The notes: generated by a model from the sequence alone, not told the origin. Numbered from the stretch's first letter, positions 1 through 54,810 are shown. The stretch is DNA of 64,000 nt from an uncultured Akkermansia sp. (GCA_947631435.1 CANRLM010000002.1:6522-70521); one strand, 5' to 3'. Numbers and translations are program-made.

Positions 1-11
1 ATGAACGTCTG

Positions 12-515: not shown

Positions 516-520
516 AAGTC

Positions 521-567
521 TGAATTGTAAAGACAAATGCACCGGGAGGAACAAGAGAAGCTATGAC
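521..567 (+). repeat. Post-stop dispersed repeat, copy 1 (TGAATTGTAAAGACAAATGCACCGGGAGGAACAAGAGAAGCTATGAC)
   Basis: Ungapped 37/47 identity to 2318-2364 by manual alignment; starts 5 nt after the stop at 515. Confidence 0.75.
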
Positions 568-723
568 ACCGTACGACAGACTCCTTCCTGTACAAAGGCA
601 CACAGCACGATTTCCGCTATGCCTATCTGCCGAGCGAAAACCTGCTGCAACCGCTTATCATGTTTTGTGGGAAGCACCTGCTACGCAAGTATGACCGGAA
701 GTCTAAGTGAATAGATTAGAAAT

Positions 724-1791: not shown

Positions 1792-1809
1792 AAACAGCGA
1801 CAGAAAAAC

Positions 1810-2313
1810 ATGATGAAAGCATACGAAAAAAGAGGAACGTTGATTGTGATACTAACGCTTATTCTGCTCGGAGTAGTCCGATACTGCGATGATTCGATCG
1901 TGGTTCGTAATCAGCCGAGAAAAGAATTCGCACCAATGAAGAAAAATGAGACGAAATCTGTTGGTTTGGAGGAGTACATAGATTTGGCGCAAGAAAGAAT
2001 TGAGGCTTTGAAAGAACAGAATTCTTTAGCCGCAATGGTTTGTGATAGGGAAAGCGCGCGTGCATTCATGAAGTACCTGGAGAAGTCAAGTTGCCTCTCC
2101 TTTTCCGTTGACCTATCTTCGTTGGATATTCAACAGAAGAAAGTCGTCGAAAAATGGGAAGACGAGATGTTTCTTGTTAATGCAGCGACTTTCATCCTTA
2201 TGAGAAAAGCCTGCAAAAAGGTTGTGGATGCCGATGGATACGGGGATGATGACGTGCGTTGTTATTATACCGAAAAATGGAATGAAATTAAAAACGGGGT
2301 TCCTGTAAAATAG
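1810..2313 (+). CDS. Hypothetical exported or membrane-anchored protein
   Basis: 167 aa; N-terminal hydrophobic stretch LIVILTLILLGVV, then a polar domain; co-oriented in the array. Confidence 0.6.
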   Translation: MMKAYEKRGTLIVILTLILLGVVRYCDDSIVVRNQPRKEFAPMKKNETKSVGLEEYIDLAQERIEALKEQNSLAAMVCDRESARAFMKYLEKSSCLSFSVDLSSLDIQQKKVVEKWEDEMFLVNAATFILMRKACKKVVDADGYGDDDVRCYYTEKWNEIKNGVPVK

Positions 2314-2317
2314 AGTG

Positions 2318-2364
2318 TGAATTGCAAGGTCGAAAACACCAGGAGGAACAACAGAAACCATGAC
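2318..2364 (+). repeat. Post-stop dispersed repeat, copy 2
   Basis: TGAATTGCAAGGTCGAAAACACCAGGAGGAACAACAGAAACCATGAC; starts 4 nt after the stop at 2313. Confidence 0.75.
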
Positions 2365-2598
2365 CACGTGCCGCACAACAGACAGGATGATTTCCACTGA
2401 TCCGACGGATCTGATAGGTAGGGATGTGATGCGTTTGGAGAGTGACTCCGACACGGGGTGGGAGCTTCGCAAGATTACTCCGCCATTGGCACGGTAGAAC
2501 AGACCTTCGCGTACGATGTGCCGGGAATCCGACGTTGGTGACTGATTCAGCGGAGATCTGAAGGTTGTAAATGGGAAAAATGTAAATAAAGAATATAT

Positions 2599-3459
2599 AT
2601 GAAGCAATTACGATATCGTGACGTAGTTTGGCTCTATCTTGCCTACATCATCATCACAACGGCACTTGTAGCGAGTGATCCCCCAGTGGGGAAGCATAAC
2701 CCTTTCGAGGTTATTGCTCGTTTATTTGTATGGCCATGGGCTGCTGAGAGAATTTTTAAGTTCTCGATCCTTATGATTTTACCCATGATGTTTGGGTGTT
2801 TCATATCGCGTCATCTGAAGAAGGGTCGTAGAATTTCTTTGGCAGTCGTTTCATGTGCAGGGTTCATAACGCTCTATTTCCTGCCGGATCCTTTTTGCGG
2901 AATAGAGATATTATTTCTAAAGAGTAAAACTTTCACTTTATGTAGTTTTTTGCTCTCCTCTGCGCTGTACGAAAAAGGACTTTCATACGCAGGACGTATA
3001 AAGGAGAAGTGGTTGCAATGGGAACGCCTCGGACGCGAGGACGTTGGCTACCGTGATTTAAGATATTATTTGATCATGGGTGTTATATTTCAGATGCTCG
3101 TGATAATCCTTGTAGAAAAGGGGATTCGAGAGTCATTAGTAGATATCGATTTTCTTTCTGATCCTCTGGAAATATTCTTTGGACCTCTGACAACATTCTT
3201 GGCGTTTTGTTTCCCCTTGATCATATCCACCTTTTTTTGTTACATTATACGGCTAGGGAAAGGAACAACACGTAAGATGAATTTGACAATTTGCTCATTG
3301 TTCGGCTTTTGCCTTTTTGCTATCACCTTTATGGTATGGAATATAGGAGGATGGCGACTATGGAGGATGCCTCTTGAAGTGGGGGCGGGCTGCATGTGCT
3401 CGTTTGCACTAACGATGGCAAGGATACTCCGGCAAGAGAAACAGTGTGAACGTCGGTAA
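2599..3459 (+). CDS. Polytopic membrane protein with an apparent internal duplication
   Basis: 286 aa, about 7-8 hydrophobic segments; both halves begin with YRD and share a P-hydrophobic-K/R-GF pattern. Confidence 0.65.
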   Translation: MKQLRYRDVVWLYLAYIIITTALVASDPPVGKHNPFEVIARLFVWPWAAERIFKFSILMILPMMFGCFISRHLKKGRRISLAVVSCAGFITLYFLPDPFCGIEILFLKSKTFTLCSFLLSSALYEKGLSYAGRIKEKWLQWERLGREDVGYRDLRYYLIMGVIFQMLVIILVEKGIRESLVDIDFLSDPLEIFFGPLTTFLAFCFPLIISTFFCYIIRLGKGTTRKMNLTICSLFGFCLFAITFMVWNIGGWRLWRMPLEVGAGCMCSFALTMARILRQEKQCERR

Positions 3460-3486
3460 TATTCATGAGGAGTCGCAAAACAATGC

Positions 3487-4149
3487 TTGCTTATGGAAGA
3501 GTTGTCACAAATAAAGAAGAGGCAAAAAGGAAAGAATAAGTTTGCCTTAGCATACCCTGTTTTGGGTTTCGCGTTTTATATAGGCACAGCTTATGGGGTA
3601 TCTTGCATAACCGGGGACGACATTGGGGTGAGGCTGTATGCTTTTTTCTATTATCTTTTCTTCTTGGTGCCTTCGATCGCGGTCGTTTTTACCGCAGAAA
3701 TCAATAAGCCAAAATGGAGATTGGCAGCAACAGTTTCTGTAATGGGTCTGGCGCTCGTTTATAGTATTGTGTTTCTGGCTGGCTTCGCGGGTCCTCTCGA
3801 TTGGAATCATCTCTTTTCATTTCCATATGTATGGATCAATATCCTGAGTACTTCAATATACACCTTTCTTGCCCTTAAATATATTCATCCTCAACAAGAT
3901 GTGCCCTTAGGCAATGAGGATTTGAGCAGTCTCTCATCCAAACGGCGTCTTATCTACATACTTTTAGCTCTCTTTTTAGGTTATTTTGGCATCCACAATT
4001 TCTATGCGGGCTACATCAGGCGAGGCCTGGCGCAGTTTATCACTCTCCTTGTGTCGGTGCTGACAATGTATTTTTTTGTGTCCTGGTTATGGGCTCTCAT
4101 CGAGGCATGTACCGTCACGCGCGATGCAAATAATCGCCCTATGATATAA
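3487..4149 (+). CDS. Membrane protein with a C-terminal TM2 domain
   Basis: C-terminal KRRLIYILLALFLGYFGIHNFYAGYIRRGLAQ is the typical TM2 signature. Start is TTG 3487 or ATG 3493. Confidence 0.7.
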   Translation: MLMEELSQIKKRQKGKNKFALAYPVLGFAFYIGTAYGVSCITGDDIGVRLYAFFYYLFFLVPSIAVVFTAEINKPKWRLAATVSVMGLALVYSIVFLAGFAGPLDWNHLFSFPYVWINILSTSIYTFLALKYIHPQQDVPLGNEDLSSLSSKRRLIYILLALFLGYFGIHNFYAGYIRRGLAQFITLLVSVLTMYFFVSWLWALIEACTVTRDANNRPMI

Positions 4150-4150
4150 T

Positions 4151-4167
4151 TGAATTGCAAGGACAAA
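4151..4167 (+). repeat. Post-stop dispersed repeat, copy 3 (partial)
   Basis: TGAATTGCAAGGACAAA: 15/17 identity to copy 1, first 12 nt identical to copy 2; starts 1 nt after the stop at 4149. Confidence 0.6.
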
Positions 4168-4461
4168 GCAACAGAGGACAAAGAAAAGATCTACTTCAGC
4201 TTTGCCGGTGAGGCGAGAAATATCGATGAAGAATGGGTGTTTTTCTCCATGGCGGAAATTTCCCGCTGTCCCCTTTCTCAGATGAGAAAATCCTTGCTTA
4301 GAGCGCGGGTGAAGCGCTCTGTGCTCCAATGGTTCCACTTAACTTCCGGTTCATCTTCTGTGAGGTGGGACACGTAAGGGCTCGTTTCTACTATAATTTG
4401 GGTCTTTCGAACGATTTGCGCTTGACGCCACAGGCGGGCATACGCTATAAGGAGGCTTGGT

Positions 4462-41295: not shown

Positions 41296-44200
41296 ATGAT
41301 ATACACGATAGAGATCAAACAGATTGATGGGAAAGACCCGGAGCCGACCCTTTCAGCCTTGCGCATCATTGAGGGGTGTGAGGAGATGTCTTCGCTGTAT
41401 CGCTATGAGGTGCTCATCCGGGATACATCTATGGGGGACGATAGTGAGGCTAAGATGCGGGAATACTTGGGCAAGAGAGTCTTGCTGGTCGTGTCGTCCG
41501 CCAAGGACAAAATCGACAAGGCTTCCGCTCAGGAAATTCAACGCGTGGCAGGCGTTGTGATGTCGATCGAATCGACAACGGAAGCCACGACATTGTCCGA
41601 GAACGCCGCCTGGTATAAGTGGACGATACGTCCCGCGCTGGCATGCGCGTGTTACTCGAAGAACCGCCTCGTGTACACGAGGGAGTCACTTGAATTAGAT
41701 TCAAGCAATAAGGGTCAATCCCCCGTATTGGCATTTTTCCGGCGCCTCGGAGAATGCTGGGATACGGATGTGCAAGTGTCGGACAACGCCCAGAAGAGGC
41801 TTGCAGCGGATGCACGAATTCAATGGGTGCAAAATGATGAAAGCGACTACGATTTCATGAGTCGGTTGGCCTCCGCGTGGGGGCTGGCTTATGTGTGGGA
41901 AGTTCCGAAAGATGCAAAGAAGGAGCGGATGATTGTCTTTGATGCACTCAGCGAGTCCGACTCGCGATTGCAGGAAGGGAATCCTGTTCAAATTGGCATC
42001 AGCTCAGCGAAAACGCGCTTCTGGAGCAAACACTATGGGACGCAGGACTTTGCGAAAGATGAGCTCAAACTGCAACTGTACGGCGATGGGAATGAAGTGA
42101 CGAATTCCGTGAAGTTCAGTTCCTATGAGCTGGGGAACATCCTGATGAAAAAACTTACGAACGATGACCTGACTCATCGCGAGGCTGTTTTGCGCGCGGT
42201 TCATGATAACCGCGGTGGTTGCTTTGGCCTCTATTACCATGGAAACAGTGATTCTGCCCTCCCCGTGATCGGCAGGGAAGTGCATTTCAAGGTGGCCGCG
42301 AGGAAGGACGGCGGATTGCAATGCAGCCCATCCACCCGCTATATGCTCACCAAGATGAAAATTCAGGTGACGCAGAACACATGGCAGGCTGAGGTGGAGG
42401 GAACGCATATCGATGAAGCCCGACAGCCCAAGTGCCTCTGCCTGCTGCCACGTCCGGTGATTGTCAATAATCACGCACCCGGGACGGCAGATATGCTGAC
42501 ATCCGGGGAAAATGGACCGATGCCTAAGATGCGTCTGTTCGTGGCGCAGGTGGTGGATACCGCCCCCTTTTCGTACGAAGAAGAAAAGAAACGCGTCACC
42601 GAGAACACTTGCAAGGTACGGGAAATAGCTCCGTTGAAGTACACGGGTGCAGGACAAGAGTCCATCTCGTTTGCTAATGAAATTGTGGTGGAACTCGGTT
42701 CCCCCTTCGCGGACAAAAACAGCGGATTGCTCGCACGCCCGAGGGTCGGGAATGTGCTGGTGTGTCTCGACCGGGGTGATTTCAGTCTGCCCATTGCCAT
42801 CAGCTCCCTGTATCGCGACCAAAATGCGTCCCCCTTTGTCGAGCTCAAGACGATGGAGCGTCATACGCTCAAGGAACAGGATGATGTTGCTGATTACTCG
42901 GCTGTCACCCTGCGCAACCGCGTGCAGCTTCCGCCGCGCAAGTACCAGGGAGACACCAAGGAATCTCCGGCGCAGGATGCGGACCTCACCGATACCGAAA
43001 AGAACTCTGAACCCGCCGGAGTGACCCGTCCGCTCTCCGTGGATGAATTGGCCGAGGGTAAGTATCCCTTCCACCAGATCCAGATGGTCACGCGCGACAA
43101 CGGCGTGCGTCCCGTGCAGCAAAACAAGGACATCACCAACACCTACATCTCCAGCGATGTCATCGAAACGGCTGCCGGAGTTTTCTCTGAGGCCAATATG
43201 TCTTCCGGTTACACCATGGAATCGGTGGCTAACGACATCCAGCAGAATCTCAATGCCCCCGTTACGCGTCCCCATTTTGAAGGAGTGAATGTGTACTCCG
43301 CCAAGGATGTGCTGATACAGTCCGCCGACCACCAGATCGTGAACGCGGGAGGCGAAATCGTCCTCACATCGGCTCAGGCGATCACGTTCCGTGTGGGGCG
43401 CTCCTCCATCAAGATCACGGAGAGCGGCATTGAGATGACGAGTGCGTGCGGCAAGGTGCTCAACTCGGGGGCCTATGCGGCGTACAATCCTGAAGGAAAA
43501 CAGCAGACCGAGCACCTCATGGGCATTAAAACGGGGGGACTCCTGGGCGGCAGAATTCGCATCGACGGCAGCGGGGTGAACATCAAGGGCCCCTACATTA
43601 GCAATATGGCCACCAATGTCTTCATGGCGCAGACTTTCCTCGGTTCTACGCTCACGATCACGGATCTAAGTGCGAGTCTCGTGGCGCCGAAAACCACGGT
43701 AGTCGGCGGGGCGGCCATCCATGACTCCGTCTTCAATGGCGCCCTCAACTTAATCTTTTCAGGGGTTGATGCGAAGAGCCTCCTCGGCACCTCCCTCATC
43801 TACAGCGATGAATTGCAGGATGGCAACCGCGTGTACGGCATATCCAGCTCAGATTTGTTGGGCAGCGCCGCCGGCGGCATCGTCAAGACCATCACGACCG
43901 TTACTGGACTTGTCGGCAACATTCTGGACGGCGGCATAGCCAACCTCATGAAACCGACGGGAAGCATGGTGAAAATGGAACCTGCCACTCTCACCCTGTC
44001 ATCTGCAACCTGCGTGAACTATGCGAATGAGCATCTCACCGTCAATACCCCAATAGCCGGTTTTATTGCCATGGGCGAGCGAAGCAGCGTTTCCGGCGGG
44101 ATGAACACGTTCGCCAGTCTGACCTCAGATGTGGATAAGGTAGTAAGTGGGGTAGCAGCGGTGGGTGTACCACTGATTGCCGGAGGCGCAGGCGCGCTGA

Positions 44201-44772
44201 TAGGTTCGGCGCTCAAGGACAAACTCAACAAGGTGAACGAAACGGCAGACACCTACACAGAGCCTTTCGGCAATAAGAAGCCGAAAATGAAATGCCGAGA
44301 CTCGAAGAATGGCCGCACACCGATGCTTATCCTGGGTGGGGTTGGCGCCGCGTTAGGCACTGCCGTAGTGGTGACGCTGGGAATAGTCGTGGGAGGATTC
44401 ACAAAAATACTCTCAGGATTATCCAACATCTTGTTCCTGGGCAAAGAGCACAAAATCGTCGGCACCAAAACAGTACAACAACTGAACGAGAGAGTAACTA
44501 CCGTGGGACGTCAGACGACTGCCATTTCTTCAAGAAGACAGGCAATAAGAGCCAACGGCGCTGCTGCAGTACAAAATAACGCCGCCGTGAATGCCACCGG
44601 CAACTCCTTGCTGGAACAGGAGCAAATTATTCACAGCCAAGGTGAAATCGTCAGTGCTACGCATGCAGCAATCGGTATTCAAACTACGAATGGGTGTGAA
44701 ACCACCGTCAATGCACAAGTCAGTGGCACAAGTGCCGTGGATATACAGACCGGTGTGCATATACAAAACTAA
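41296..44772 (+). CDS. vgrG: Divergent VgrG spike protein (1158 aa) with a hydrophobic C-terminal extension
   Basis: EEMSSLYRYEV start, QNDESDYDFMSRLASAWGLAY (QYxESDxxFxxRL motif), PRVGNVLVCLDRGDFSLP (gp5-N OB motif), DUF2345-like TFRVGRSSIKITESGIEM. Confidence 0.8.
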   Translation: MIYTIEIKQIDGKDPEPTLSALRIIEGCEEMSSLYRYEVLIRDTSMGDDSEAKMREYLGKRVLLVVSSAKDKIDKASAQEIQRVAGVVMSIESTTEATTLSENAAWYKWTIRPALACACYSKNRLVYTRESLELDSSNKGQSPVLAFFRRLGECWDTDVQVSDNAQKRLAADARIQWVQNDESDYDFMSRLASAWGLAYVWEVPKDAKKERMIVFDALSESDSRLQEGNPVQIGISSAKTRFWSKHYGTQDFAKDELKLQLYGDGNEVTNSVKFSSYELGNILMKKLTNDDLTHREAVLRAVHDNRGGCFGLYYHGNSDSALPVIGREVHFKVAARKDGGLQCSPSTRYMLTKMKIQVTQNTWQAEVEGTHIDEARQPKCLCLLPRPVIVNNHAPGTADMLTSGENGPMPKMRLFVAQVVDTAPFSYEEEKKRVTENTCKVREIAPLKYTGAGQESISFANEIVVELGSPFADKNSGLLARPRVGNVLVCLDRGDFSLPIAISSLYRDQNASPFVELKTMERHTLKEQDDVADYSAVTLRNRVQLPPRKYQGDTKESPAQDADLTDTEKNSEPAGVTRPLSVDELAEGKYPFHQIQMVTRDNGVRPVQQNKDITNTYISSDVIETAAGVFSEANMSSGYTMESVANDIQQNLNAPVTRPHFEGVNVYSAKDVLIQSADHQIVNAGGEIVLTSAQAITFRVGRSSIKITESGIEMTSACGKVLNSGAYAAYNPEGKQQTEHLMGIKTGGLLGGRIRIDGSGVNIKGPYISNMATNVFMAQTFLGSTLTITDLSASLVAPKTTVVGGAAIHDSVFNGALNLIFSGVDAKSLLGTSLIYSDELQDGNRVYGISSSDLLGSAAGGIVKTITTVTGLVGNILDGGIANLMKPTGSMVKMEPATLTLSSATCVNYANEHLTVNTPIAGFIAMGERSSVSGGMNTFASLTSDVDKVVSGVAAVGVPLIAGGAGALIGSALKDKLNKVNETADTYTEPFGNKKPKMKCRDSKNGRTPMLILGGVGAALGTAVVVTLGIVVGGFTKILSGLSNILFLGKEHKIVGTKTVQQLNERVTTVGRQTTAISSRRQAIRANGAAAVQNNAAVNATGNSLLEQEQIIHSQGEIVSATHAAIGIQTTNGCETTVNAQVSGTSAVDIQTGVHIQN

Positions 44773-44787
44773 ACAACCGAAAAAACG

Positions 44788-46017
44788 ATGTCCTGGGACG
44801 GAAAACAATTTGGACGACCACTTGTCATGCTTCTGCGCGATGACATGGAGGAACTGTGCAAAGAGCGAGGCTACAAGATGGGGGCGGAGCTGGATGAGCT
44901 GCTGCCGAAGGAGCGGCGAGTAAGCGCTTCACTGGCATTGGCTTTACTGATGCACAACGGGAAATCGGAGGCGGCGGCAAACCTGCTAAGCTATGCCATT
45001 GTGCCGAGGGTGGGGGTGTGGTGGTGTTACCTATGCTACCGGCTGGTGGCAGAGGACATTGAGAAGGATAAGGCGAAGGATGGATTGACCCCCACGGAAA
45101 GATTCAAAAAAGAACAAGAGGAATTGATCAAAAGTCTTACGGACACATCGGACGTGGATGCCATGGTGGAGGCGCGAAAAAAGGAATTGGAGGCACAGGT
45201 GAAGGAGCTGGAAGCAGCTGCGCGTGAGCAAAAATACCTCAACCCGGTAGAACGCATCAAACTCAAGCTGGCGGTTTTGCAGCGGGAGTACGCTGAGTTC
45301 GAGCAGTCGCTGCCGCCCGGAAGCATGGGGAAACCCGGCGACCCCATAGCCATGGAATCGACCATCAACAGTATTTTGGAGCAGGCGAAAAGCAGCATGA
45401 ATGTGTACCTTGAAACGCTGCAGCGCGACCGACAAATGGTGGCAAATGCGGCTAAGGACGATGATCCCATCTTCCAGGCGATCGAGCAGAAAGTCGGCGC
45501 TGTGAAACCGAAGATCGACCAAGCCATGAACAAGTACTTCCCGCTCAAAATACCCGGATTGCCGGCGAGACCAACGGCAGCGGAAAAGGGGAAAGCGGTG
45601 GAAGCCGCACTGCGCTGGATACTCGTCCCGAGCGATGACAACGGGAAACTGGCCTGTGAGGCGGCTATGGCGGCGCAGGATGGTCCCGAAGCCATGCTTG
45701 CCTACTCCGCTTTCTGGAGCTCCACCAACCTCAAAACAGAAACCGGCATCGCCCCGACAAACATAGGACTTCCTCCTCTGGGTATCAGCAAAACGCTCAT
45801 GCAGATCGCCTTGATGGAAGGGGGAACCATGGACTACGACAAGCGCTACGAAGAGTTCTTGCGCCTGGGGATTGAGTGCGCGGACGGCACTTGCACGTGG
45901 GATGAATACGGCAACCCGGTGCGTGCTGCCGAAAAGGAAAAAAAGAGAGGCGCACCCGACGACAGCGTTTTTAAGTCGCGTTTTGGGTTCGGCAGGGAAG
46001 AACATTCGCAACCATGA
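44788..46017 (+). CDS. DUF6931-like T6SS-associated protein with a large helical insertion
   Basis: LSYAIVPRVGVWWCYLC and VEAALRWILVPSDDN...LAYSAFWS resemble, from recall, the DUF6931 motifs found next to vgrG/PAAR genes. Confidence 0.6.
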   Translation: MSWDGKQFGRPLVMLLRDDMEELCKERGYKMGAELDELLPKERRVSASLALALLMHNGKSEAAANLLSYAIVPRVGVWWCYLCYRLVAEDIEKDKAKDGLTPTERFKKEQEELIKSLTDTSDVDAMVEARKKELEAQVKELEAAAREQKYLNPVERIKLKLAVLQREYAEFEQSLPPGSMGKPGDPIAMESTINSILEQAKSSMNVYLETLQRDRQMVANAAKDDDPIFQAIEQKVGAVKPKIDQAMNKYFPLKIPGLPARPTAAEKGKAVEAALRWILVPSDDNGKLACEAAMAAQDGPEAMLAYSAFWSSTNLKTETGIAPTNIGLPPLGISKTLMQIALMEGGTMDYDKRYEEFLRLGIECADGTCTWDEYGNPVRAAEKEKKRGAPDDSVFKSRFGFGREEHSQP

Positions 46018-46532
46018 AGACAATCGTACACAGACTGAGCCTGCTTGCCCCGGCGGTTTTCCTGCTGGCGGGGTGCTCGTGGTTTGTCAGCAAGCCGCTG
46101 CCGATCTGTGTAATCGATGGGCGAAGCAAACCCGTGCGCGGTGATGTGGTCGATGTGTTCGCCGTGCGCGGTGAAAATGAACTGCTCCGCCAAACGGTCA
46201 CTCCGGTGGATGAATACTTCAGCACGTTGGGACGCGCTTCGCGTCCGTCCGTGATATGGCGCTGCTACATGGATGATGGCTTCCGACAAATTCTGTGGGA
46301 TGATTCGTGGGAAATGCGTACGTGGAGACGCTCCGGAGCTGACAGAGCCATCGCTGTGACTAAGCGTCCGCCACGCACCACGACCGATAGCGCAGATTCT
46401 CGTCGCACCACTTTCTCTCTGGCTAAAAAGGATTACCCGCGTGGCACGCAGAGCCTCATCTTGCATGTGACAGATGTCGGCCCGGTGGTTGAAGCCTCAC
46501 GCACCAAACTCATCAAACCGAAGAAAAAATAA
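46014..46532 (+). CDS. Lipoprotein, divergent paralog of the TssJ-like protein
   Basis: Lipobox LAGC; aligns by eye with 46827-47342. Confidence 0.7.
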   Translation: MKTIVHRLSLLAPAVFLLAGCSWFVSKPLPICVIDGRSKPVRGDVVDVFAVRGENELLRQTVTPVDEYFSTLGRASRPSVIWRCYMDDGFRQILWDDSWEMRTWRRSGADRAIAVTKRPPRTTTDSADSRRTTFSLAKKDYPRGTQSLILHVTDVGPVVEASRTKLIKPKKK

Positions 46533-46536
46533 AACC

Positions 46537-46824
46537 ATGCCGACCCCCATCATGATCACCACCGGAGTTTCTGCCACGGGAGACATCGTGACAGGTACAG
46601 CCGTCAACTTTTTGGTGCATGGGCTCCCGATTGCAACCCTGACCTCTCCCGTTGCCGGACCCATGTGCGCGGGTGTCCTCTCGGTCTCGACAGCTGTCAA
46701 CAAACTGGTGCATGGACTTCCCATGGCCAATATCACCTCGGTAGCGACGGGGGCGAACCCCATCACGGGGGTGCCGGTAACAACAGCGGCTGTTGTCACA
46801 ACAGGAATCAACTATATCTGCTAA
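46537..46824 (+). CDS. Divergent PAAR-like spike tip protein (95 aa)
   Basis: Two repeats NFLVHGLPIATLTS / NKLVHGLPMANITS corresponding to the V-x-I-x-G-x-PAAR motif; small, Gly/Thr/Val-rich; located in the vgrG cluster. Confidence 0.7.
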   Translation: MPTPIMITTGVSATGDIVTGTAVNFLVHGLPIATLTSPVAGPMCAGVLSVSTAVNKLVHGLPMANITSVATGANPITGVPVTTAAVVTTGINYIC

Positions 46825-46826
46825 TC

Positions 46827-47342
46827 ATGAAAAAAGCTATTCGAAAAGTAGGAGTTATCATGGGAGTACTGCTCGCGTTAACCGGGTGTAACTCAACTGC
46901 GCCGAAGAAGTTGGGAATCAACATAGCGTACGATCCGGTGACCATTGAGAGACTGCGCGTGTTCCCCACCGTGGAAGTGGATATCGTGGAAGCAAATGAA
47001 ACGATGCTCAAGCAATTGGAAGCCACTTCGATTGATGATTATTTTGACCCGGACAACATGCTGCGGGATTCCTTGCGGCGTAAGACTTTCTATTTCGGAG
47101 AGGAAGATAATGGAGCGAAAAAACTCGAGAAAAGCGACAAGATTTGGGACACATGGATTAACAAACACGGAGCAAGCCACGTGGTGCTGTTTGCTAATTT
47201 GGCTCGCGATGGAGCCAAAGGACCGGATATGCGCCGGCTTACTCTCCCCCTGGCTAAGAATCGTTGGAAGTCCGGCGAAATTAACGTGAGCATCATACCA
47301 GCCGGTTTGATGCTGCAAACCCCTATGAATCCTGAGGATTAA
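46827..47342 (+). CDS. tssJ: T6SS outer-membrane lipoprotein TssJ-like
   Basis: Lipobox LTGC, 171 aa, canonical position immediately upstream of tssK-tssL; sequence similarity to TssJ is weak. Confidence 0.6.
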   Translation: MKKAIRKVGVIMGVLLALTGCNSTAPKKLGINIAYDPVTIERLRVFPTVEVDIVEANETMLKQLEATSIDDYFDPDNMLRDSLRRKTFYFGEEDNGAKKLEKSDKIWDTWINKHGASHVVLFANLARDGAKGPDMRRLTLPLAKNRWKSGEINVSIIPAGLMLQTPMNPED

Positions 47343-48743: not shown

Positions 48744-49705
48744 CGCTCTACGAACTATTTCACCCTCTGGTCACGTACATGGTGGCAAGCCGTTATGAGG
48801 CAGCTTCCGGTAAAGGCCCTGAAATGGATGTGCTGCTCGGGCATATCATGCGCGAGCTTTCCACGATTCGTAAGACGGGAGCGGTCTCAGCCGATTTGGC
48901 AGAAGGAATGGAGGATGCGTGCAGGTACACGGCGTTTTACATCGATTACATGGTGCACGAGGGGAATTTCCCGTACGCGCGGGAGTGGCAGGATCTCGGG
49001 CGCAGCCTTTACAATGAACTGGCAGGGGATGAAAAGTTCTTTGATTATATGAGGCAGTGGTTGGCAGAGGATACGCCCCTTGCGCGAGATCACCTGCGGT
49101 TGATGCATGCGATGATCGCCAGCGGCTTTTCCGGAGCGTTGGAGCGGCGCAGCGTGCAACTCGAGGAACTCTTACGGAGTGCGGCTGAGAAAATCAACTT
49201 GCCCGGTGAAGAACAGGCCAAGCATTCTTTGCTGGAATCTCAAGGGGAAAAGTCGTTGATGAAGCCTCGCAGGCCTGTCTTGGTAGCGGGGTTGGTAACC
49301 TGCGCCTGTGCGGTGATACTCGTTGCGTCTGTCCTCTTTTACATCCACACATACAGGGGGGCAACCGTAGCGCTTTGGCAGGTACTCGACAAAACAGGGG
49401 AGTATATAAGAATGGAGGCTGTTCTTCATGCCCAGAATTCTGACAGCATGGTCGTGAAGGGGGTGAACCTGGACAGGAAGCATGCAGAGTCTGCCGACGC
49501 TGTACAGGAAAAGGAGGCAGAGTCTTCTCCTCCACCTGTGGAGCACACGAATCCTGCCGATGCCCCCGGAGAGGGAACGTCTATCGCTCCCGGATCGGGC
49601 GATGCATCGGAACATACGTCGTGCGCGCCTGAGGAAGAACCGCGCCAACTTCCTGAGTTGCCGCAAGAATACACGGAACAGCTTGGAGAGGAGGGAAAAG
49701 AGTGA
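48740..49705 (+). CDS. tssL: T6SS membrane subunit, DotU/TssL family
   Basis: YTAFYIDYMV...W...NELAGDEKFFDY, SGFSG, single TM (VLVAGLVTCACAVILVASVLFY), acidic tail. Confidence 0.8.
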   Translation: MTLYELFHPLVTYMVASRYEAASGKGPEMDVLLGHIMRELSTIRKTGAVSADLAEGMEDACRYTAFYIDYMVHEGNFPYAREWQDLGRSLYNELAGDEKFFDYMRQWLAEDTPLARDHLRLMHAMIASGFSGALERRSVQLEELLRSAAEKINLPGEEQAKHSLLESQGEKSLMKPRRPVLVAGLVTCACAVILVASVLFYIHTYRGATVALWQVLDKTGEYIRMEAVLHAQNSDSMVVKGVNLDRKHAESADAVQEKEAESSPPPVEHTNPADAPGEGTSIAPGSGDASEHTSCAPEEEPRQLPELPQEYTEQLGEEGKE

Positions 49706-52700
49706 TGAATATGCCGTTTGAACCATATTGTGCCGTAGCCAACGTCGTCCCGCCGACCCTGAATGATGCATCAGATGTGTCTGGCTCTCGACTGAGTTCG
49801 GCGCAGGACTCCATGATGCCGGGATGGCTGAGTGAGATGACGATGATGGACTGGGTGGTCGTGGCATTGGTGGCGCTTGCCGCGCTCATCTTGATATACG
49901 TGCTGGTCCGTGTGCTGCGCAGGAGGGCTCAATTGCGCAGCATGGTGAACACCATGCGCGAGGATCTGTTGCTGCGCCGGGAGCTGGCAGCCATGGCGGC
50001 CGGCAAGGATCTGAAGGCACAACAGCGCGAGCAGTACCTGCGCACGGAAAATATCCGCATGGATTTGGCCGCCGCCAAACATACGATGGAGGAGCGGGGG
50101 TTGTCCCCCCGCAATACAGGGTCATGGTTCTTACTCGGTGAACCGGGCTCCGGCAAGAGCCGCCTCATGGAGTACGGCGGTATTCGCTATCCGGCCGGCA
50201 TCAATGATTTCTCCCTCGCGAGTGAACCTACGTCCACGTTCAACATGTGGCTGGCGGATAAAGGGATGGTTTGGGATATCGGAGGACGCCTTTTCCTGAG
50301 TCGTTGGGGAGGACGTCAGGACCACGAATGGCAGACTTTCCTCGATGGTTACAAGAAAATTTTTAAGAACAATTTAGTCAGAGGGGTGATCCTGACGATC
50401 CCGGCGGATGCACTTCTGCTTGACTCCTCAGAATTACGAGATCGCAAGGTATCGCTCATTGCCGAGGAGATGCGGGCTTTCAATCGTACATGCGGGGTGT
50501 ATTGTCCGGTATGGGTCGTGATTACGAAGTGCGATCAGTTGGATGGATTTTCGGAGTTCTTTTCCCTTCTTCACGAGAAGGACTGTGAAAAACCCCTCGG
50601 TTGGCAAAATCCGGAACCGGATCAACCTTTTGACCCTGTCATTGCCGACAGAGGATTTGATGAGTTGATGGAAAATCTCAGGACGCTTCGCGCCTCTTTT
50701 GCACTCAATGAGAGTGTGTGGGAAAAATGTGCCGCATCTGGCGGTCGACGTGATGATACGGCCATCCCCGTGTACATGCTGCCGGAGGCTTTTGCGCGAA
50801 TGAAGGAAAACCTGAAGCGGTATTTGGCAGGCATTTTCACTCACGTGGAGAATAAGGGGAACGCTCGGGGTCTCTTCCAGTTCATGGGTGTTTGGTTCAC
50901 GGCGACCCTGGACAAACCGGTGACGACCATGGAGCGGGTGATGTTCCACAAGGATGGCGATCGTCTCAGTCCCGTCGTCCTCCCGAACAGTGCCGTAGAG
51001 ACTCCTGCCGCACCTGCTGAGCAACTCGGGGGTGATGCTGTTGCGGATCTTGTTTCCGTGCGCGAGAAGATACTCTCCCTTGCTTCCCCGCGTCATTATT
51101 TTACGTCGCATCTTTTGCAGCACCTTGTATTGGGAGTCGGCAATCGGAGCGATTACACGTATGCTGCTGCGCGCAGAATGCGTCGGCCGTACTGGATCGG
51201 CGCCGTTTCTTTGCTCGCCCTGGCGTTGCCGCTGGTCATATGGGCGGCCGTCCATCGCGAAGAACTCAAGCGCCTGGCTGATCGTCACGTGGCTTTTTGG
51301 ACGAAGACGCACCAACTCTTCGTAGGAGGAGCCATTCATAATGCTCCCCTGATTGCGGCAGAGAAGGGAAAACAAATTTCGTTCACGGATGTTCCGGTCC
51401 CCGGCACACAGATTTCCAGACGGGAGTATCTGTACAATCTGGACAACATGGCTACGCTTTCTACGGATCTGCCGGTGTTTTGGCGAGCAGCGTCCTGGGT
51501 GACAGACGGTGAGGCGTCAGGTATTCTGCTGGAAAAGCACAAGAAATTCATTGATAAGGCCGCCGTAGTTTGCATGCTCGTACAACCTGTTGTCGATTCT
51601 GCCAGAGCTGTGTTTACCTATCGGGCGGAACATTACCAGGCAGGGCAGAATCCATGGAGTTCGGATGATACAAAATCTCTGGCAACGCTCATGCGCATCA
51701 CCAACTACGGGATTCATCTGATGAATGGCGAGCGCATGTTGGATGATATCGTGTATGCCGATTTGGTGAACCTGGGAAGCTCCCCCAGCCATGAGGCCGC
51801 CATTAAATCCTTCTGGAGCGCCAGCACTGCAGGCAACAAGACCATCATGGAGATGAGCATACTCAATGGCTATCTCAAGCCCGTGTCCATGGAGGCTGCT
51901 CAAGCTATCAGTTCCGGTGCAGCTCTCTATACTGCGGCTCTCGATACCATGGAGATATACCCGCAGTACAATTATCTGGCGATGCGGCGTTTTTTGGAGA
52001 GATTGAGCCGTATGCGGAAGCTGCAGGCCGATATGAAGCAACGCGAGGAAATGTTCTGCGATGCCGTGCGCAGAGAGGATTCGGAGCGTATGCATGCGTG
52101 CCGGGATGAGTGGAAGGGAATCTATGAAGAGGCCTTGAAACTGCAACAAAATCTCCTGGAAGATGAGCGCCTTCTGGGAATTGATTCGCAGAACTCACTG
52201 CGTGAGTGTGTGGAGAAGTTGCACTCCCGCATTCATGCCGAGATGGAAAAAGATATCCATCGATTTGATGATTTGGGAAAATATCTGGGTGATTCAGAAA
52301 ACGCTGAATTCCTTCGAAACCAGGTGATTGCCCTTCACAAGGCAATTGGTGACAAAATTCCCCGGATAGCCCAGGAGTGTGATTCTCTGCCCGAGGATAT
52401 ATGCAGCTTGTGGGATCGACGCAAGGAAGACGCCTCTGAACTTCGTCCCTGGCAGCGCTTTATGGCGTATGCCAAATCTCTCTACGACGTTTTATACTAC
52501 CCGCTGCCGGCCGGAGAACAGGGGGAGTCCTTCCATCGTCGCATTGCGCGGGTGAAGGAGATCAAGAAGCGCTATGATGAGGCGGTCTCTGCGCTCGCTC
52601 AACAAGGCGGCGTTGATTTGGGCGCTTCCTGTTGGGAGCAAAACTGGCTTATTCTCACCAATCGCGTAATCCTGGATTGGCTCCGCACCGTGCCTTTGAG

Positions 52701-54810
52701 CAATACCGATATCATCCCCGAGGAGATGCTGAAAAAAACGCTACGGAAACTCCCTGCCATCCCGTACACGCGCGCCGGCAAATATACGCTTAATCCCTGC
52801 TATGACCCGAACACGGTCAACATGCGCATCACAGACCTCAACGAGCTTTCTGCGTTCGTGCATGAACACCTGACCACGAGTAAATCTCGCGATGATGAGC
52901 AGATAACCCACCTGGTTAAGCTGTTGGATGATGCGTGTCGCCATTTCCTTGTGGATTATGTGATGTATTGGACAGACGAGATACCCGCCCACTATAAAAT
53001 TCAGGGCATACGCAGTTGGGCGCAGTTTGTTGAGAGTGGGGACGTGTTTTTCACGGCTGATGTGTCCGGCATGCTCTACGAGATCAATGAGTTGATGTAT
53101 AAGGCTCTTTCTATCCCCTGTCTGCAGGATAAAGAGCTGTTCCCAGAGGTGGCTTCCCGACTTGAAGAAATTAACCGCGCTCAGAAAGGACTCAATTCGG
53201 AGGCGCGGCGCAGTTTCCTGCATTCAGCGGATTTCATCAGCCGCCTGGATACTTCCCCTTCCAAGGCCTGGCAGACGCTCGTGAGGATGCCGGTTGAGGA
53301 TCTCTTCAAGCAGTTCTGGGGCTCATGGTACGCCGACGAGTCTGACGCGACCTTCCTCTGGTGGAATGATTACCTGAGTAATGGGATGCGCCTGCTCAAA
53401 AAAGAAGCGGCCGATGAACTAAGCGAGAGTGTGCGTGGATGCCTGCCGCTCGCATCCATGTTCCCGCTGTGTAACACCCCGCTGCGACGACCGGAGGAAA
53501 TTCTCTCCTCTTATGACCTGGAGAATCTGCAGGAACGCCTGGAAGGACTCTCCGGTCTGTCGGATGAGGGACAGGAGGCGGAAATCGCCAAGCAGGCAGG
53601 TTTGCGTAACATCCCGGAGGAGAATGCCACGCTTCGTCTGCCGATGAACGGACAGCGCGAGAAGGCCTGGGCTAAGGTGTCGGATGTCGTGCAGTTACTG
53701 GCCGATCCAGAGTTGCCGCTCACGGCCGCGATAGTTCTGCCCCCGGCTGAGGCGAGAACTGCTTCTGTCAGCGGAGAGGACGGGAAGAGCCGTCTGCTGC
53801 CTGTGGGAAGACGCTACCCGTATTTCCGTGTGGCTCGTGATGGTGAGGCTCTCTCCTCCCTCGTGAATCTTAATCGTGAAAACAAGGAGGATATGCCGCT
53901 GACGTCCGGTCCGATACCGGCAGACGCGGGAAATCTCCAATTCCAATTTTTCCGCAGAGCGGATGACCCGTCACCCGGCTGCACCGTGAACATTTCCGGC
54001 GGCTGGAGTGCGATTAACCTTTACCTTCGCTCAGGGGTTGTACTGGGCGATGACAAAAAAACGGCGTATGTGCCCCTTATTTTCCGTGATAAGGAAGGTT
54101 ATAGTTGCCTGTTCTGGGTGGGCGTGCGCTTCAATCGTGATATGATTTCTCCCGGCGATTGGCTCGGTGCGACTGCGTTTGATGAGAGCCCGAACGTTCA
54201 GGGAGATGCTGCAGCTTCTGCGGAGAAAGAATTGCGCAAAGCATTTCGCCAAGCTTTCCTCACGGAGCGTAGCTTGCCGCGTGCCGTCTCGTCGGCTGAT
54301 CGCGAGGAGTTGCGTCGCTCCGTCCAGTCATTGCTGGGTAAGACGTACTCAATAGCTTTTGAGGTCGTGCTTCCAAGCGCTGTGGCAGAACCCCAGGAGG
54401 AGCGCTTGCGTACCGCTGCTCTTTATCCATATTTCGCCGTGGGATCTGCCAATGGCAGTTCGGGGAAGCTGCGTGCCGTCCCGGATGCTACGCAAAGCGC
54501 ACCATCGCTTATCCCGGGCAAAGAGAAGCTGCTCTTGCGCCTTTATCGCCACGCGCAAGATGAGTTTTCCGCCATGTACGTCCAGCAGCGGGAACCTCTC
54601 CTGGATTACGTTATCACCCACGCTACGGAGTATTCGCCTGTTCCCGGCTATTTGACAGTGCCCGTATCTGTTTCGTCCGGCAGGGGCTCTATGGTATACA
54701 CGCTTTACCTGCGCCCCGTAATCAAGGTATATGCCGATGATGGACTGCTGCCGGAGGATGGATCCGGCGGGTTGCATGTTGACTATCCTGATGAAGATCT
54801 TCCTCTTTAA
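49702..54810 (+). CDS. tssM: T6SS membrane subunit IcmF/TssM, extended (1702 aa)
   Basis: WFLLGEPGSGKS Walker A, NMWLADKGMVWDIGGR, RGVILTIPAD, PVWVVITKCDQLDGFSEFF, TM at YWIGAVSLLALALPLVIWA. Confidence 0.85.
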   Translation: MMNMPFEPYCAVANVVPPTLNDASDVSGSRLSSAQDSMMPGWLSEMTMMDWVVVALVALAALILIYVLVRVLRRRAQLRSMVNTMREDLLLRRELAAMAAGKDLKAQQREQYLRTENIRMDLAAAKHTMEERGLSPRNTGSWFLLGEPGSGKSRLMEYGGIRYPAGINDFSLASEPTSTFNMWLADKGMVWDIGGRLFLSRWGGRQDHEWQTFLDGYKKIFKNNLVRGVILTIPADALLLDSSELRDRKVSLIAEEMRAFNRTCGVYCPVWVVITKCDQLDGFSEFFSLLHEKDCEKPLGWQNPEPDQPFDPVIADRGFDELMENLRTLRASFALNESVWEKCAASGGRRDDTAIPVYMLPEAFARMKENLKRYLAGIFTHVENKGNARGLFQFMGVWFTATLDKPVTTMERVMFHKDGDRLSPVVLPNSAVETPAAPAEQLGGDAVADLVSVREKILSLASPRHYFTSHLLQHLVLGVGNRSDYTYAAARRMRRPYWIGAVSLLALALPLVIWAAVHREELKRLADRHVAFWTKTHQLFVGGAIHNAPLIAAEKGKQISFTDVPVPGTQISRREYLYNLDNMATLSTDLPVFWRAASWVTDGEASGILLEKHKKFIDKAAVVCMLVQPVVDSARAVFTYRAEHYQAGQNPWSSDDTKSLATLMRITNYGIHLMNGERMLDDIVYADLVNLGSSPSHEAAIKSFWSASTAGNKTIMEMSILNGYLKPVSMEAAQAISSGAALYTAALDTMEIYPQYNYLAMRRFLERLSRMRKLQADMKQREEMFCDAVRREDSERMHACRDEWKGIYEEALKLQQNLLEDERLLGIDSQNSLRECVEKLHSRIHAEMEKDIHRFDDLGKYLGDSENAEFLRNQVIALHKAIGDKIPRIAQECDSLPEDICSLWDRRKEDASELRPWQRFMAYAKSLYDVLYYPLPAGEQGESFHRRIARVKEIKKRYDEAVSALAQQGGVDLGASCWEQNWLILTNRVILDWLRTVPLSNTDIIPEEMLKKTLRKLPAIPYTRAGKYTLNPCYDPNTVNMRITDLNELSAFVHEHLTTSKSRDDEQITHLVKLLDDACRHFLVDYVMYWTDEIPAHYKIQGIRSWAQFVESGDVFFTADVSGMLYEINELMYKALSIPCLQDKELFPEVASRLEEINRAQKGLNSEARRSFLHSADFISRLDTSPSKAWQTLVRMPVEDLFKQFWGSWYADESDATFLWWNDYLSNGMRLLKKEAADELSESVRGCLPLASMFPLCNTPLRRPEEILSSYDLENLQERLEGLSGLSDEGQEAEIAKQAGLRNIPEENATLRLPMNGQREKAWAKVSDVVQLLADPELPLTAAIVLPPAEARTASVSGEDGKSRLLPVGRRYPYFRVARDGEALSSLVNLNRENKEDMPLTSGPIPADAGNLQFQFFRRADDPSPGCTVNISGGWSAINLYLRSGVVLGDDKKTAYVPLIFRDKEGYSCLFWVGVRFNRDMISPGDWLGATAFDESPNVQGDAAASAEKELRKAFRQAFLTERSLPRAVSSADREELRRSVQSLLGKTYSIAFEVVLPSAVAEPQEERLRTAALYPYFAVGSANGSSGKLRAVPDATQSAPSLIPGKEKLLLRLYRHAQDEFSAMYVQQREPLLDYVITHATEYSPVPGYLTVPVSVSSGRGSMVYTLYLRPVIKVYADDGLLPEDGSGGLHVDYPDEDLPL

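What the first reader, a model, noticed from the sequence alone, without database searches (positions are those of the whole stretch)
43440..44772. VgrG carries membrane-like helices inside its needle, then resumes a beta-repeat tail
Seen: after the DUF2345-like segment come Gly/Ala-rich hydrophobic stretches (VVSGVAAVGVPLIAGGAGALIGSAL near 44140; MLILGGVGAALGTAVVVTLGIVVGGF near 44323), then about 100 aa of short alternating beta-like repeats ending GVHIQN. Known: evolved VgrGs usually append a toxin at the extreme C-terminus, and TM-bearing effectors need chaperones. Inference: a spike with a built-in pore-forming or translocation hairpin that can still be capped by the PAAR-like protein. It is the only effector candidate in the locus.
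Basis: partly seen in the sequence, partly recalled or inferred. Interest (0 to 1): 0.7.

Follow-up and report, generated by a model that had tools for sequence, protein, structure and literature searches.

The report
Akkermansia T6SS spike with swappable hydrophobic tip
A rabbit-gut Akkermansia has a type VI secretion spike protein (VgrG) whose far end carries two membrane-like helices and a fibrous tail; this end differs sharply between otherwise near-identical strains, so it is probably a membrane-attacking tip of a kind not yet described, though its activity is untested.

Summary
VgrG (41296-44772, 1158 aa) has two uncharged Gly/Ala-rich hydrophobic stretches at the stated coordinates (res 949-973 and 1010-1035). 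They are kept in position in relatives down to about 40% identity.

They lie after the beta-helix (about res 663-804) and a conserved neck, not inside the needle. The tail is not a resumed beta-helix. About 55 residues are heptad-periodic and modelled as helix at low confidence. Only the last 45 residues alternate like beta strands, and that alternation is not conserved.

The C-terminal domain matches no Pfam, PHROG or PDB entry. An exhaustive profile search of 1.84 billion proteins found 30 clusters, and every named one is from Akkermansia. Shorter relatives lack the roughly 100-aa hydrophobic insert.

Residues 936-1154 form a polymorphic cassette. Identity to the nearest strain is 52-61%, against 89-98% for neighbouring genes. 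dN/dS is about 0.5-0.66 against 0.11. Reads from an independent study show other alleles in the same samples, diverging at the same boundaries. No co-varying immunity gene was found.

Best reading (0.45): an evolved VgrG with a membrane-inserting tip. Its target and activity are unknown, and PAAR capping is untested. It is a new variant of a known kind.

The parts
41296..44772 (+). VgrG (TssI) spike gene, 1158 aa
   Evidence: ORF. Pfam Phage_GPD 50.6 bits, above the 30.1 cut-off. The AF2 model matches VgrG1 and VgrS structures, Foldseek E about 1e-21. It lies between clpV and tssK in a complete T6SS cluster.
43282..43707 (+). gp5-like beta-helix (res 663-804), including the weak DUF2345 match
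   Evidence: Runs of short beta strands in the AF2 model, pLDDT 45-57. DUF2345 E=0.0022, below the cut-off. NAGGEIVLT..ITLRVG is invariant across the family.
43708..44100 (+). Conserved neck of the C-terminal domain (res 805-935), with motifs TGSMVKMEP..TLSS and NTPIAGFIAMGER
   Evidence: Conserved in both long and short family members. The AF2 model gives two helices and a hairpin at low confidence. The variable cassette starts at its 3' end.
44140..44214 (+). Hydrophobic segment 1 (res 949-973), Gly/Ala-rich, marginally hydrophobic
   Evidence: KD19 maximum 1.80, no charged residue. Hessa sum +3.9 kcal/mol, GxxxG at 966. Its position is conserved in the closer long forms.
44215..44322 (+). 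Charged loop (res 974-1009) with the conserved [DE]D[TSA][FY]T motif (ADTYTEP)
   Evidence: D985, T986, T988 and P996 are invariant in A1. A related motif, with substitutions at positions 1-3 in some members, recurs across the long forms. Its function is unknown.
44323..44439 (+). Hydrophobic segment 2 (res 1010-1035) plus an amphipathic continuation to res 1048
   Evidence: KD19 maximum 2.15. Hessa sum +0.2 kcal/mol, GxxxG at 1017 and 1029. An equivalent segment scoring -0.2 to +2.7 kcal/mol is present in most long forms, weaker (+3.9 and +4.2) in P0010 and P0011, and absent from short forms.
44461..44634 (+). Heptad-periodic tail (res 1056-1113): V/I/L at position a, Q/N/T at position d
   Evidence: Period 7 power 84 against shuffle 95th percentile 54. 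Period 7.0-7.2 in most relatives. Modelled as helix at pLDDT 50-62. No proline in the last 100 residues of 25 of 27 relatives.
44635..44769 (+). Terminal 45 residues (res 1114-1158) with period-2 alternation, ending GVHIQN
   Evidence: Period 2 power 93 against shuffle 95th percentile 48.5. It is significant in only 2 of 27 relatives. A semi-conserved G-x-H/E-x-x-x end motif appears across the family.
44100..44756 (+). Polymorphic cassette (res 936-1154)
   Evidence: Nucleotide-identity valley against L005 and L011. Amino-acid identity 52-61% against 89-98% for neighbouring genes. dN/dS 0.48-0.66 against 0.11. In independent metagenomes, depth falls to a single allele over 44139-44741 and other alleles branch off at 44099 and 44756.
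44788..46017 (+). DUF6931 protein (409 aa), the conserved downstream partner of these VgrGs
   Evidence: Pfam DUF6931 63.5 bits. Same position in L016, L019 and L021. No hydrophobic segment or signal peptide. Also present beside short-form VgrGs that lack the insert. Its first two thirds diverge along with the cassette in L011.
46014..46532 (+). Lipoprotein 1 (172 aa, lipobox LLAGC), TssJ-like candidate
   Evidence: Hydrophobic leader plus Cys. No Pfam hit. Synteny is conserved.
46537..46824 (+). PAAR-like protein (95 aa)
   Evidence: Pfam PAAR_motif E=0.0099, 16.5 bits, below the 27-bit cut-off. The orthologue in L016 gives E=0.017. Identity to other strains is 91-97% for the closer loci L005 and L011 and 66-73% for the distant L016 and L013, far more conserved than the VgrG tail.
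46827..47342 (+). Lipoprotein 2 (171 aa, lipobox ALTGC), TssJ-like candidate

Best explanation
This is an evolved (specialised) VgrG of an Akkermansia-restricted lineage.

Layout:
- An ordinary gp27/gp5-like hub and beta-helix (to about res 804).
- A family-specific neck (res 805-935).
- A strain-variable cassette (res 936-1154), built from two uncharged Gly/Ala-rich helices separated by a 36-residue charged loop, then a proline-free heptad tail.

Proposed mechanism:
- VgrG is a trimer, so the tail most likely forms a three-stranded fibrous stalk, probably a coiled coil with polar d layers.
- The six hydrophobic helices are probably packed and shielded until firing.
- When the sheath contracts, the spike carries the module into the target envelope.
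- There the glycine-zipper-like helices insert into a lipid bilayer and perturb it, by leak, depolarisation, or by helping the spike cross.
- The cytoplasmic DUF6931 protein is the likeliest partner that holds or loads this end.

Shown: the architecture, its conservation, the insert character, the restricted distribution and the polymorphism.

Inferred: trimeric packing, membrane insertion, any toxicity, the identity of the target, and the role of DUF6931.
For: - VgrG identity and complete T6SS context.
- Two charge-free hydrophobic stretches of 25-26 residues. The second has about 0 kcal/mol predicted insertion cost. There are three GxxxG motifs.
- Hydrophobic character is retained while the sequence diverges to 26-40% identity. 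That is how lipid-facing segments evolve.
- The hydrophobic module is a discrete insert of about 100 aa, present in long forms and absent from short forms that keep the neck and tail. This fits an added function rather than a core structural need.
- Strain-level hypervariability confined to res 936-1154, with raised dN/dS, and several alleles co-existing in the same gut samples. This is typical of parts that meet targets.
- No other effector candidate was recognised in the genome.
- Precedents in papers. Glycine-zipper segments of T6SS effectors permeabilise membranes (Tde1; the same paper discusses Tse4 and VasX; PMC10240207). A VgrG with a predicted transmembrane segment in its C-terminal domain is needed for membrane fusion (Burkholderia VgrG5; bioRxiv 10.1101/2023.02.09.527577).
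Against: - No activity data of any kind.
- Both AlphaFold2 models are of low confidence over the C-terminal domain (pLDDT below 50), so the helices are predictions.
- The first segment is only marginally hydrophobic (+3.9 kcal/mol).
- No transmembrane or co-varying immunity gene lies beside the cassette. DUF6931 is 94% identical between strains whose cassettes are 52-61% identical, and it has no membrane segment. Known antibacterial membrane toxins carry a cognate immunity gene (from established knowledge of Tse4, VasX, Ssp6 and Tme).
- Fast evolution could partly reflect weak constraint on low-complexity sequence.
- dN/dS stays below 1.
Confidence: 0.45

Rival explanations
1. Structural tip only. 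The neck, hydrophobic helices and heptad tail form a permanently folded trimeric extension: a six-helix apolar core plus a stalk. It lengthens or sharpens the spike, docks the PAAR-like cap, or fits the unusually long TssM channel. It has no membrane-damaging activity of its own.
For: - Neck and heptad tail are present in all family members, including short forms without the hydrophobic insert, so the extension is a lineage feature of the spike.
- The extreme C-terminus has a semi-conserved motif.
- TssM in these loci is about 1700 aa.
- No immunity gene was found.
- Gly/Ala-rich helices pack tightly in helical bundles (general knowledge).
Against: - A purely structural core would be expected to be conserved, yet this is the most variable stretch of the locus.
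- Short forms do without the insert.
- The segments are apolar on all faces, with no charged residue over 25-26 residues.
Confidence: 0.25
2. Eukaryote-directed pore or fusogen. The spike tip acts on host epithelial, protist or fungal membranes, as Burkholderia VgrG5 does in cell-cell fusion. The layout resembles class I viral fusion proteins: a trimer, a Gly/Ala-rich hydrophobic peptide and heptad repeats. No immunity would then be needed.
For: - Absence of an immunity gene.
- VgrG5 precedent: a predicted transmembrane segment in the C-terminal domain and a PAAR protein are both needed for fusion.
- The combination of hydrophobic segments and heptads.
- An ankyrin-repeat protein with a signal peptide lies next to the short-form VgrG island of related Akkermansia.
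Against: - No sequence relationship to anything outside Akkermansia in an exhaustive search.
- Akkermansia is known as an extracellular mucus dweller, not an intracellular one (general knowledge).
- The resemblance to fusion proteins is an analogy from memory, not a test.
Confidence: 0.15
3. Strain-identity determinant. The variable membrane-inserting cassette is delivered into sibling cells and read by a variable partner, as in Proteus IdsD-IdsE. It would then serve kin discrimination rather than killing as such.
For: - The cassette is polymorphic between co-resident strains.
- IdsD is a T6SS substrate with transmembrane helices and a variable region (from memory).
Against: - No co-varying membrane partner was found beside the gene.
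- DUF6931 co-diverges only in the more distant comparison and is cytoplasmic.
Confidence: 0.08

Closest known systems
Burkholderia pseudomallei-group VgrG5 (T6SS-5 spike with a fusogenic C-terminal domain)
   Same: - A VgrG with a long C-terminal domain that holds a predicted internal transmembrane segment.
- It works together with a small PAAR protein encoded in the cluster.
- No separate effector is known.
   Different: - No detectable sequence relationship. The exhaustive profile search with this C-terminal domain returned only Akkermansia-type VgrGs.
- Different phylum and lifestyle.
- VgrG5's domain is conserved among the fusogenic species, whereas this one is hypervariable between strains.
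- I did not fetch the VgrG5 sequence for a direct comparison.
Glycine-zipper and transmembrane T6SS effectors (Tse4, VasX/Tme family, N-terminus of Tde1)
   Same: Gly-rich apolar helices with GxxxG motifs that insert into and permeabilise target membranes, delivered on the spike (PMC10240207).
   Different: - Those are separate cargo proteins with adaptors and cognate immunity genes.
- Here the segments are fused in-line to VgrG, are followed by a heptad tail, and have no immunity gene beside them.
- There is no sequence similarity.
Other evolved VgrGs (V. cholerae VgrG1-ACD and VgrG3, P. aeruginosa VgrG2b)
   Same: An effector function appended to the C-terminus of the spike protein.
   Different: Those carry globular enzymatic domains with known folds. 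This one carries hydrophobic helices plus a fibrous tail with no Pfam, PHROG or PDB match.
Polymorphic toxin architecture (CdiA-CT, Rhs-CT)
   Same: A conserved body, a sharp boundary after a conserved motif (here P-x-AGF-x-AMGER...SGG), then a variable C-terminal cassette with several alleles in one community.
   Different: The cassette ends four codons before the stop and brings no co-varying immunity gene.
Trimeric fibrous needles and stalks with polar-core heptads (phage P22 gp26 tail needle, trimeric autotransporter stalks)
   Same: A heptad pattern with beta-branched residues at position a and Q/N/T at position d, on an obligate trimer (the comparison is from memory).
   Different: No homology was detected, and the fold is not established. 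AlphaFold2 confidence is only 50-62.

Membership tests
VgrG / TssI spike | gp27-like hub and gp5 OB-fold N-terminal region | tested here: met
   Pfam Phage_GPD 50.6 bits, above the 30.1 cut-off. The PDB profile search hits 2p5z and 6sjl. The AF2 N-terminus has pLDDT 65-90, and Foldseek gives E about 1e-21 to VgrG1 (4mtk, 7q5p) and VgrS.
VgrG / TssI spike | C-terminal gp5-like beta-helix (DUF2345) | tested here: inconclusive
   DUF2345 scores 18.3 bits, below the 30.7 cut-off. AF2 shows repeated short strands over res 663-804, but at pLDDT 45-57. Foldseek alignments of 776-843 columns reach into it.
VgrG / TssI spike | Scores above the NCBIfam VgrG models' cut-offs | tested here: not met
   TIGR03361 49 bits against a cut-off of 186. 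TIGR01646 35 bits against 122. It is a divergent lineage, not a typical proteobacterial VgrG.
VgrG / TssI spike | Encoded within a T6SS core gene cluster | tested here: met
   tssB, tssC, hcp, tssE, tssF, tssG, clpV, tssK, tssL, tssM and tssA all have Pfam hits above their cut-offs.
Evolved (specialised) VgrG effector | A C-terminal extension beyond the beta-helix | tested here: met
   About 350 residues follow the last predicted beta-helix strand.
Evolved (specialised) VgrG effector | The extension has effector activity on a target | not testable with these tools
Burkholderia VgrG5-type fusogenic C-terminal domain | Sequence homology of the C-terminal domain | tested here: not met
   The C-terminal profile against 1.84 billion representative proteins gave 30 clusters. 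All are VgrGs of this lineage, or fragments of them, apart from two low-complexity repeat proteins, and every named member is Akkermansia. No direct pairwise comparison was made.
Burkholderia VgrG5-type fusogenic C-terminal domain | Predicted transmembrane segment in the C-terminal domain that is needed for membrane fusion | tested here: inconclusive
   Predicted hydrophobic segments are present. Fusion activity is not testable here.
Glycine-zipper membrane-active T6SS toxins | Apolar helices with GxxxG motifs | tested here: met
   GxxxG at 966, 1017 and 1029, and 10 small-xxx-small pairs.
Glycine-zipper membrane-active T6SS toxins | Adjacent cognate (membrane) immunity gene | tested here: not met
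   The downstream genes are a cytoplasmic DUF6931 protein, two lipoproteins and a PAAR-like protein. None has an internal transmembrane segment, and none co-varies with the cassette in the L005 comparison.
Polymorphic toxin systems | Conserved body, demarcating motif and variable C-terminal cassette | tested here: met
   Boundaries at nt 44099/44100 and 44756 in locus comparisons and in metagenome contigs.
Polymorphic toxin systems | An immunity gene that travels with the cassette | tested here: not met
   Identity recovers to 91-95% from the start of the next gene in L005.
PAAR (the neighbouring 95-aa protein) | Pfam PAAR_motif above its cut-off | tested here: not met
   16.5 bits against a cut-off of 27, E=0.0099. 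Size, position and conservation fit a PAAR-like cap, but membership is not shown.

The most novel reading that the evidence does not exclude
The spike tip is a self-contained, strain-polymorphic membrane-fusion or pore device that needs no immunity protein. It would be a bacterial injection spike built on the same logic as class I viral fusion proteins: an obligate trimer, a Gly/Ala-rich hydrophobic peptide pair and a heptad stalk. Its alleles would be exchanged as cassettes among co-resident Akkermansia strains to change which membranes are attacked or recognised.
Probability: 0.15. Interest if true: 0.8.

Novelty: new variant of a known kind. Interest (0 to 1): 0.55.

Why it matters
- Akkermansia is one of the most studied gut commensals, yet I found no paper describing a T6SS or VgrG of its own.
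- Only 7 of 151 sampled Akkermansiaceae species carry the sheath gene, so this is an accessory weapon of some lineages.
- If the tip is membrane-active, it is a new effector family fused to the spike itself.
- Its cassette-like polymorphism without an obvious immunity partner would be an unusual case for how T6SS-armed strains coexist.
- It would also give a compact, chaperone-testable model for how hydrophobic segments are carried on a T6SS spike.

Tried and rejected
- **AlphaFold2 on the C-terminal 476 residues with 7 sequences.** Mean pLDDT 33.8, unusable beyond secondary-structure hints.
- **Full-length model with 26 sequences.** It improved only the N-terminal part, and the C-terminal domain stayed below 50. 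I therefore did not use Foldseek to interpret that domain. The PDB fold search only confirms the VgrG body.
- **Database searches of the C-terminal domain.** Pfam, PHROGs and PADLOC gave nothing meaningful. NCBIfam on the whole protein and the PDB profile search matched only the N-terminal VgrG region.
- **Gene order recalled from Burkholderia T6SS-5.** I suspected a relationship from memory. Every named relative turned out to be Akkermansia, so homology to VgrG5 is not supported and only the functional analogy remains.
- **DUF6931 as a chaperone specific for the hydrophobic helices.** Weakened, because it also accompanies short-form VgrGs that lack them.
- **Lipoprotein 1 as an immunity protein.** Its divergence is not clearly greater than that of core genes, so I dropped it as a firm candidate.
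- **Toesca et al. 2014 on VgrG5.** The paper is not held in the library.
Full report
**What is there**

The window carries a complete type VI secretion cluster on the + strand: tssB, tssC, hcp, an ImpE-family gene, tssE, tssF, tssG, clpV, vgrG, a DUF6931 gene, tssK, tssL, a 1702-aa tssM and tssA. All have Pfam hits above their cut-offs. Between the DUF6931 gene and tssK lie three genes without a firm family hit: a lipoprotein, a 95-aa PAAR-like gene and a second lipoprotein.

The finding lies in vgrG, 41296-44772, 1158 aa. Related loci come from rabbit-gut Akkermansia MAGs. The assembly is 2.43 Mb.

**Check of the observation**

- Both quoted hydrophobic stretches are at the stated coordinates: res 949-973 (nt 44140-44214) and res 1010-1035 (nt 44323-44400). 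The protein ends GVHIQN.
- Every 19-residue window with Kyte-Doolittle mean above 1.5 falls in these two stretches (maxima 1.80 and 2.15), and neither has a charged residue.
- A simplified Hessa sum rates the second as membrane-competent (+0.2 kcal/mol) and the first as marginal (+3.9). There are three GxxxG motifs.
- The gene is not an assembly artefact. Contigs from an independent study cover 44070-44813 without a single difference. Full-length relatives with the same layout occur in many assemblies.

**Where the segments sit**

- The N-terminal part is a bona fide VgrG. Phage_GPD is above its cut-off. The AlphaFold2 N-terminus is confident, and Foldseek gives E about 1e-21 to VgrG1 and VgrS structures over about 780-840 aligned columns.
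- Predicted beta-helix strands run from res 663 to 804.
- A neck (res 805-935) follows. It is conserved across the whole family and carries the motifs TGSMVKMEP..TLSS and NTPIAGFIAMGER.
- Only after that come the hydrophobic segments.
- So they are not inside the needle. They are part of a C-terminal extension of about 350 residues.

**The tail**

- Res 1056-1113 has a 7-residue hydrophobic period, with power 84 against a shuffle 95th percentile of 54.
- V/I/L occupy one position of the repeat and Q/N/T sit three residues later.
- Only the last 45 residues alternate with period 2 (93 against 48.5).
- Across the 23 relatives tested, the 7.0-7.2 period is the strongest signal in most. In one search the alternation beats the shuffles in only 2 of 27 family members. 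Proline is absent from the last 100 residues in 25 of 27.
- AlphaFold2 draws res 1064-1146 as one helix at pLDDT 50-62.
A beta-like terminal segment in this particular allele is not excluded.

**Relatives and modularity**

- A word-seeded search of 5.8 billion proteins found six relatives.
- An exhaustive HMMER profile search with res 683-1158 against 1.84 billion representatives found 30 clusters. All are VgrGs of this lineage, or fragments of them, apart from two low-complexity repeat proteins.
- Every member that carries a source name is from Akkermansia.
- The C-terminal domain has no match in Pfam, PHROGs or PADLOC. NCBIfam on the whole protein and a PDB profile search of the full-length family alignment matched only the N-terminal VgrG region.
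- The family splits into two forms:
  - Long forms (1120-1311 aa) carry an insert of about 100 aa. It consists of the first hydrophobic segment (clear only in the closer relatives), a charged loop with a conserved [DE]D[TSA][FY]T motif, and the second hydrophobic segment. That segment scores -0.2 to +2.7 kcal/mol in most long forms and is weaker in P0010 and P0011.
  - Short forms (976-1057 aa) pass straight from the P-x-AGF motif to the tail.
- The hydrophobic module is thus an add-on to a lineage-specific spike extension.

**Polymorphism**

| Region or gene | Identity to L005 | Identity to L011 |
|---|---|---|
| Neighbouring genes | 89-98% | 83-98% |
| VgrG res 1-682 | 95% | 88% |
| VgrG res 683-930 | 88% | 71% |
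| Hydrophobic module (res 931-1055) | 61% | 40% |
| Tail (res 1056-1158) | 52% | 20% |
| DUF6931 | 94% | 73% |

- The nucleotide-identity valley runs from about 44095 to 44700 against L005. Against L011 it extends into the first two thirds of the DUF6931 gene.
- Against L005, dN/dS is 0.11 for the N-terminal part, 0.66 for the module and 0.48 for the tail. dS is also raised there, which fits imported divergent alleles.
- In three metagenomes of an independent study, several strain variants cover the flanks. Between 44139 and 44741 only the window's allele remains, at lower depth, and unmatched sequence branches off at 44099 and 44756.
- Res 936-1154 therefore behaves as a swappable cassette. 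It is bounded by the conserved AMGER..SGG motif and the last four codons.

**Partners**

- The DUF6931 gene follows the VgrG in all loci examined.
- It has no hydrophobic segment or signal peptide.
- It also accompanies short-form VgrGs. It is therefore a general spike partner, not a chaperone specific to the hydrophobic helices.
- The PAAR-like protein matches Pfam PAAR_motif only weakly (E=0.0099). It is far more conserved than the VgrG tail.
- No neighbouring gene has an internal transmembrane segment or co-varies with the cassette in the close comparison.
- The genome has one VgrG, one Hcp and no Rhs. The C-terminal domain is therefore the only recognisable effector candidate, although unrecognised cargo effectors cannot be excluded.

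**Interpretation**

The most economical reading is an evolved VgrG whose tip carries glycine-zipper-like helices that enter a target membrane. A trimeric fibrous tail would hold them.

Two precedents are documented:
- Glycine-zipper segments of T6SS effectors permeabilise membranes (PMC10240207).
- Burkholderia VgrG5 has a predicted transmembrane segment in its C-terminal domain, which is needed for cell fusion together with its PAAR (bioRxiv 10.1101/2023.02.09.527577 and 10.1101/2022.02.24.481536).

Membership in either family is not supported, because there is no homology. This is an analogy of mechanism.

The missing immunity gene weakens a classical antibacterial toxin model. It keeps three alternatives alive: a purely structural tip, a eukaryote-directed device, and a strain-identity determinant. 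I put the membrane-inserting effector tip at 0.45.

**Novelty**

- Evolved VgrGs and membrane-active T6SS effectors are both known.
- New here are the domain family, the in-line fusion of hydrophobic helices plus a heptad tail to the spike, the cassette polymorphism without a visible immunity partner, and the host genus.
- I found no paper on an Akkermansia T6SS or VgrG, and one paper that merely mentions DUF6931.
- The sheath gene occurs in 7 of 151 sampled Akkermansiaceae species.

Noticed in passing
L013:4902-13474: A more distant Akkermansia locus has two VgrG paralogues around a single DUF6931 gene. The first (1246-aa frame) has one strong hydrophobic segment. The second has two Gly/Ala-rich ones.
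   Followed up: partly
L021:1385-14237: Short-form lineage: an island away from the core cluster with VgrG (1025 aa), DUF6931, VgrG (1026 aa) and VgrG (997 aa). It is followed by a 477-aa ankyrin-repeat protein with a signal-peptide-like leader and a 321-aa protein with no Pfam hit.
   Followed up: partly
window 44215-44322: The loop between the hydrophobic segments holds a conserved [DE]D[TSA][FY]T motif (ADTYTEP here), followed by a Pro-containing polar stretch. A related motif recurs across the long forms. No function is known. A processing or recognition site is possible.
   Followed up: no
window 44788-45600: The first two thirds of the DUF6931 gene drop to 61-70% nucleotide identity against L011 along with the VgrG cassette, but stay at 91-95% against L005. 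This is either a longer recombination tract or co-evolution with the spike end.
   Followed up: partly
window 49702-54810: TssM is 1702 aa, and about 1690-1720 aa in related loci. Only the N-terminal IcmF-related domain is recognised. An extended membrane complex might go with the extended spike.
   Followed up: no
window 11443-31482: A giant 6679-aa ORF with strongly positive GC skew lies directly upstream of the T6SS cluster. It is presumably a repeat-rich surface protein.
   Followed up: no
window 1-4200: A low-GC stretch (43-44% against about 55%) holds short ORFs without family hits, apart from a TM2-domain protein at 3487-4149. These could be foreign DNA, and cargo or immunity genes are not excluded.
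   Followed up: no
L011:9980-13540: The VgrG of this strain has a tandem KDTKETQ repeat inserted in the linker before the beta-helix. It is absent from the window's protein.
   Followed up: no
whole family (genome search): The T6SS sheath gene is found in only 7 of 151 sampled Akkermansiaceae species and 3 of 20 genera. The VgrG of this type is found in 3 of 25 genomes sampled from the genus.
   Followed up: partly
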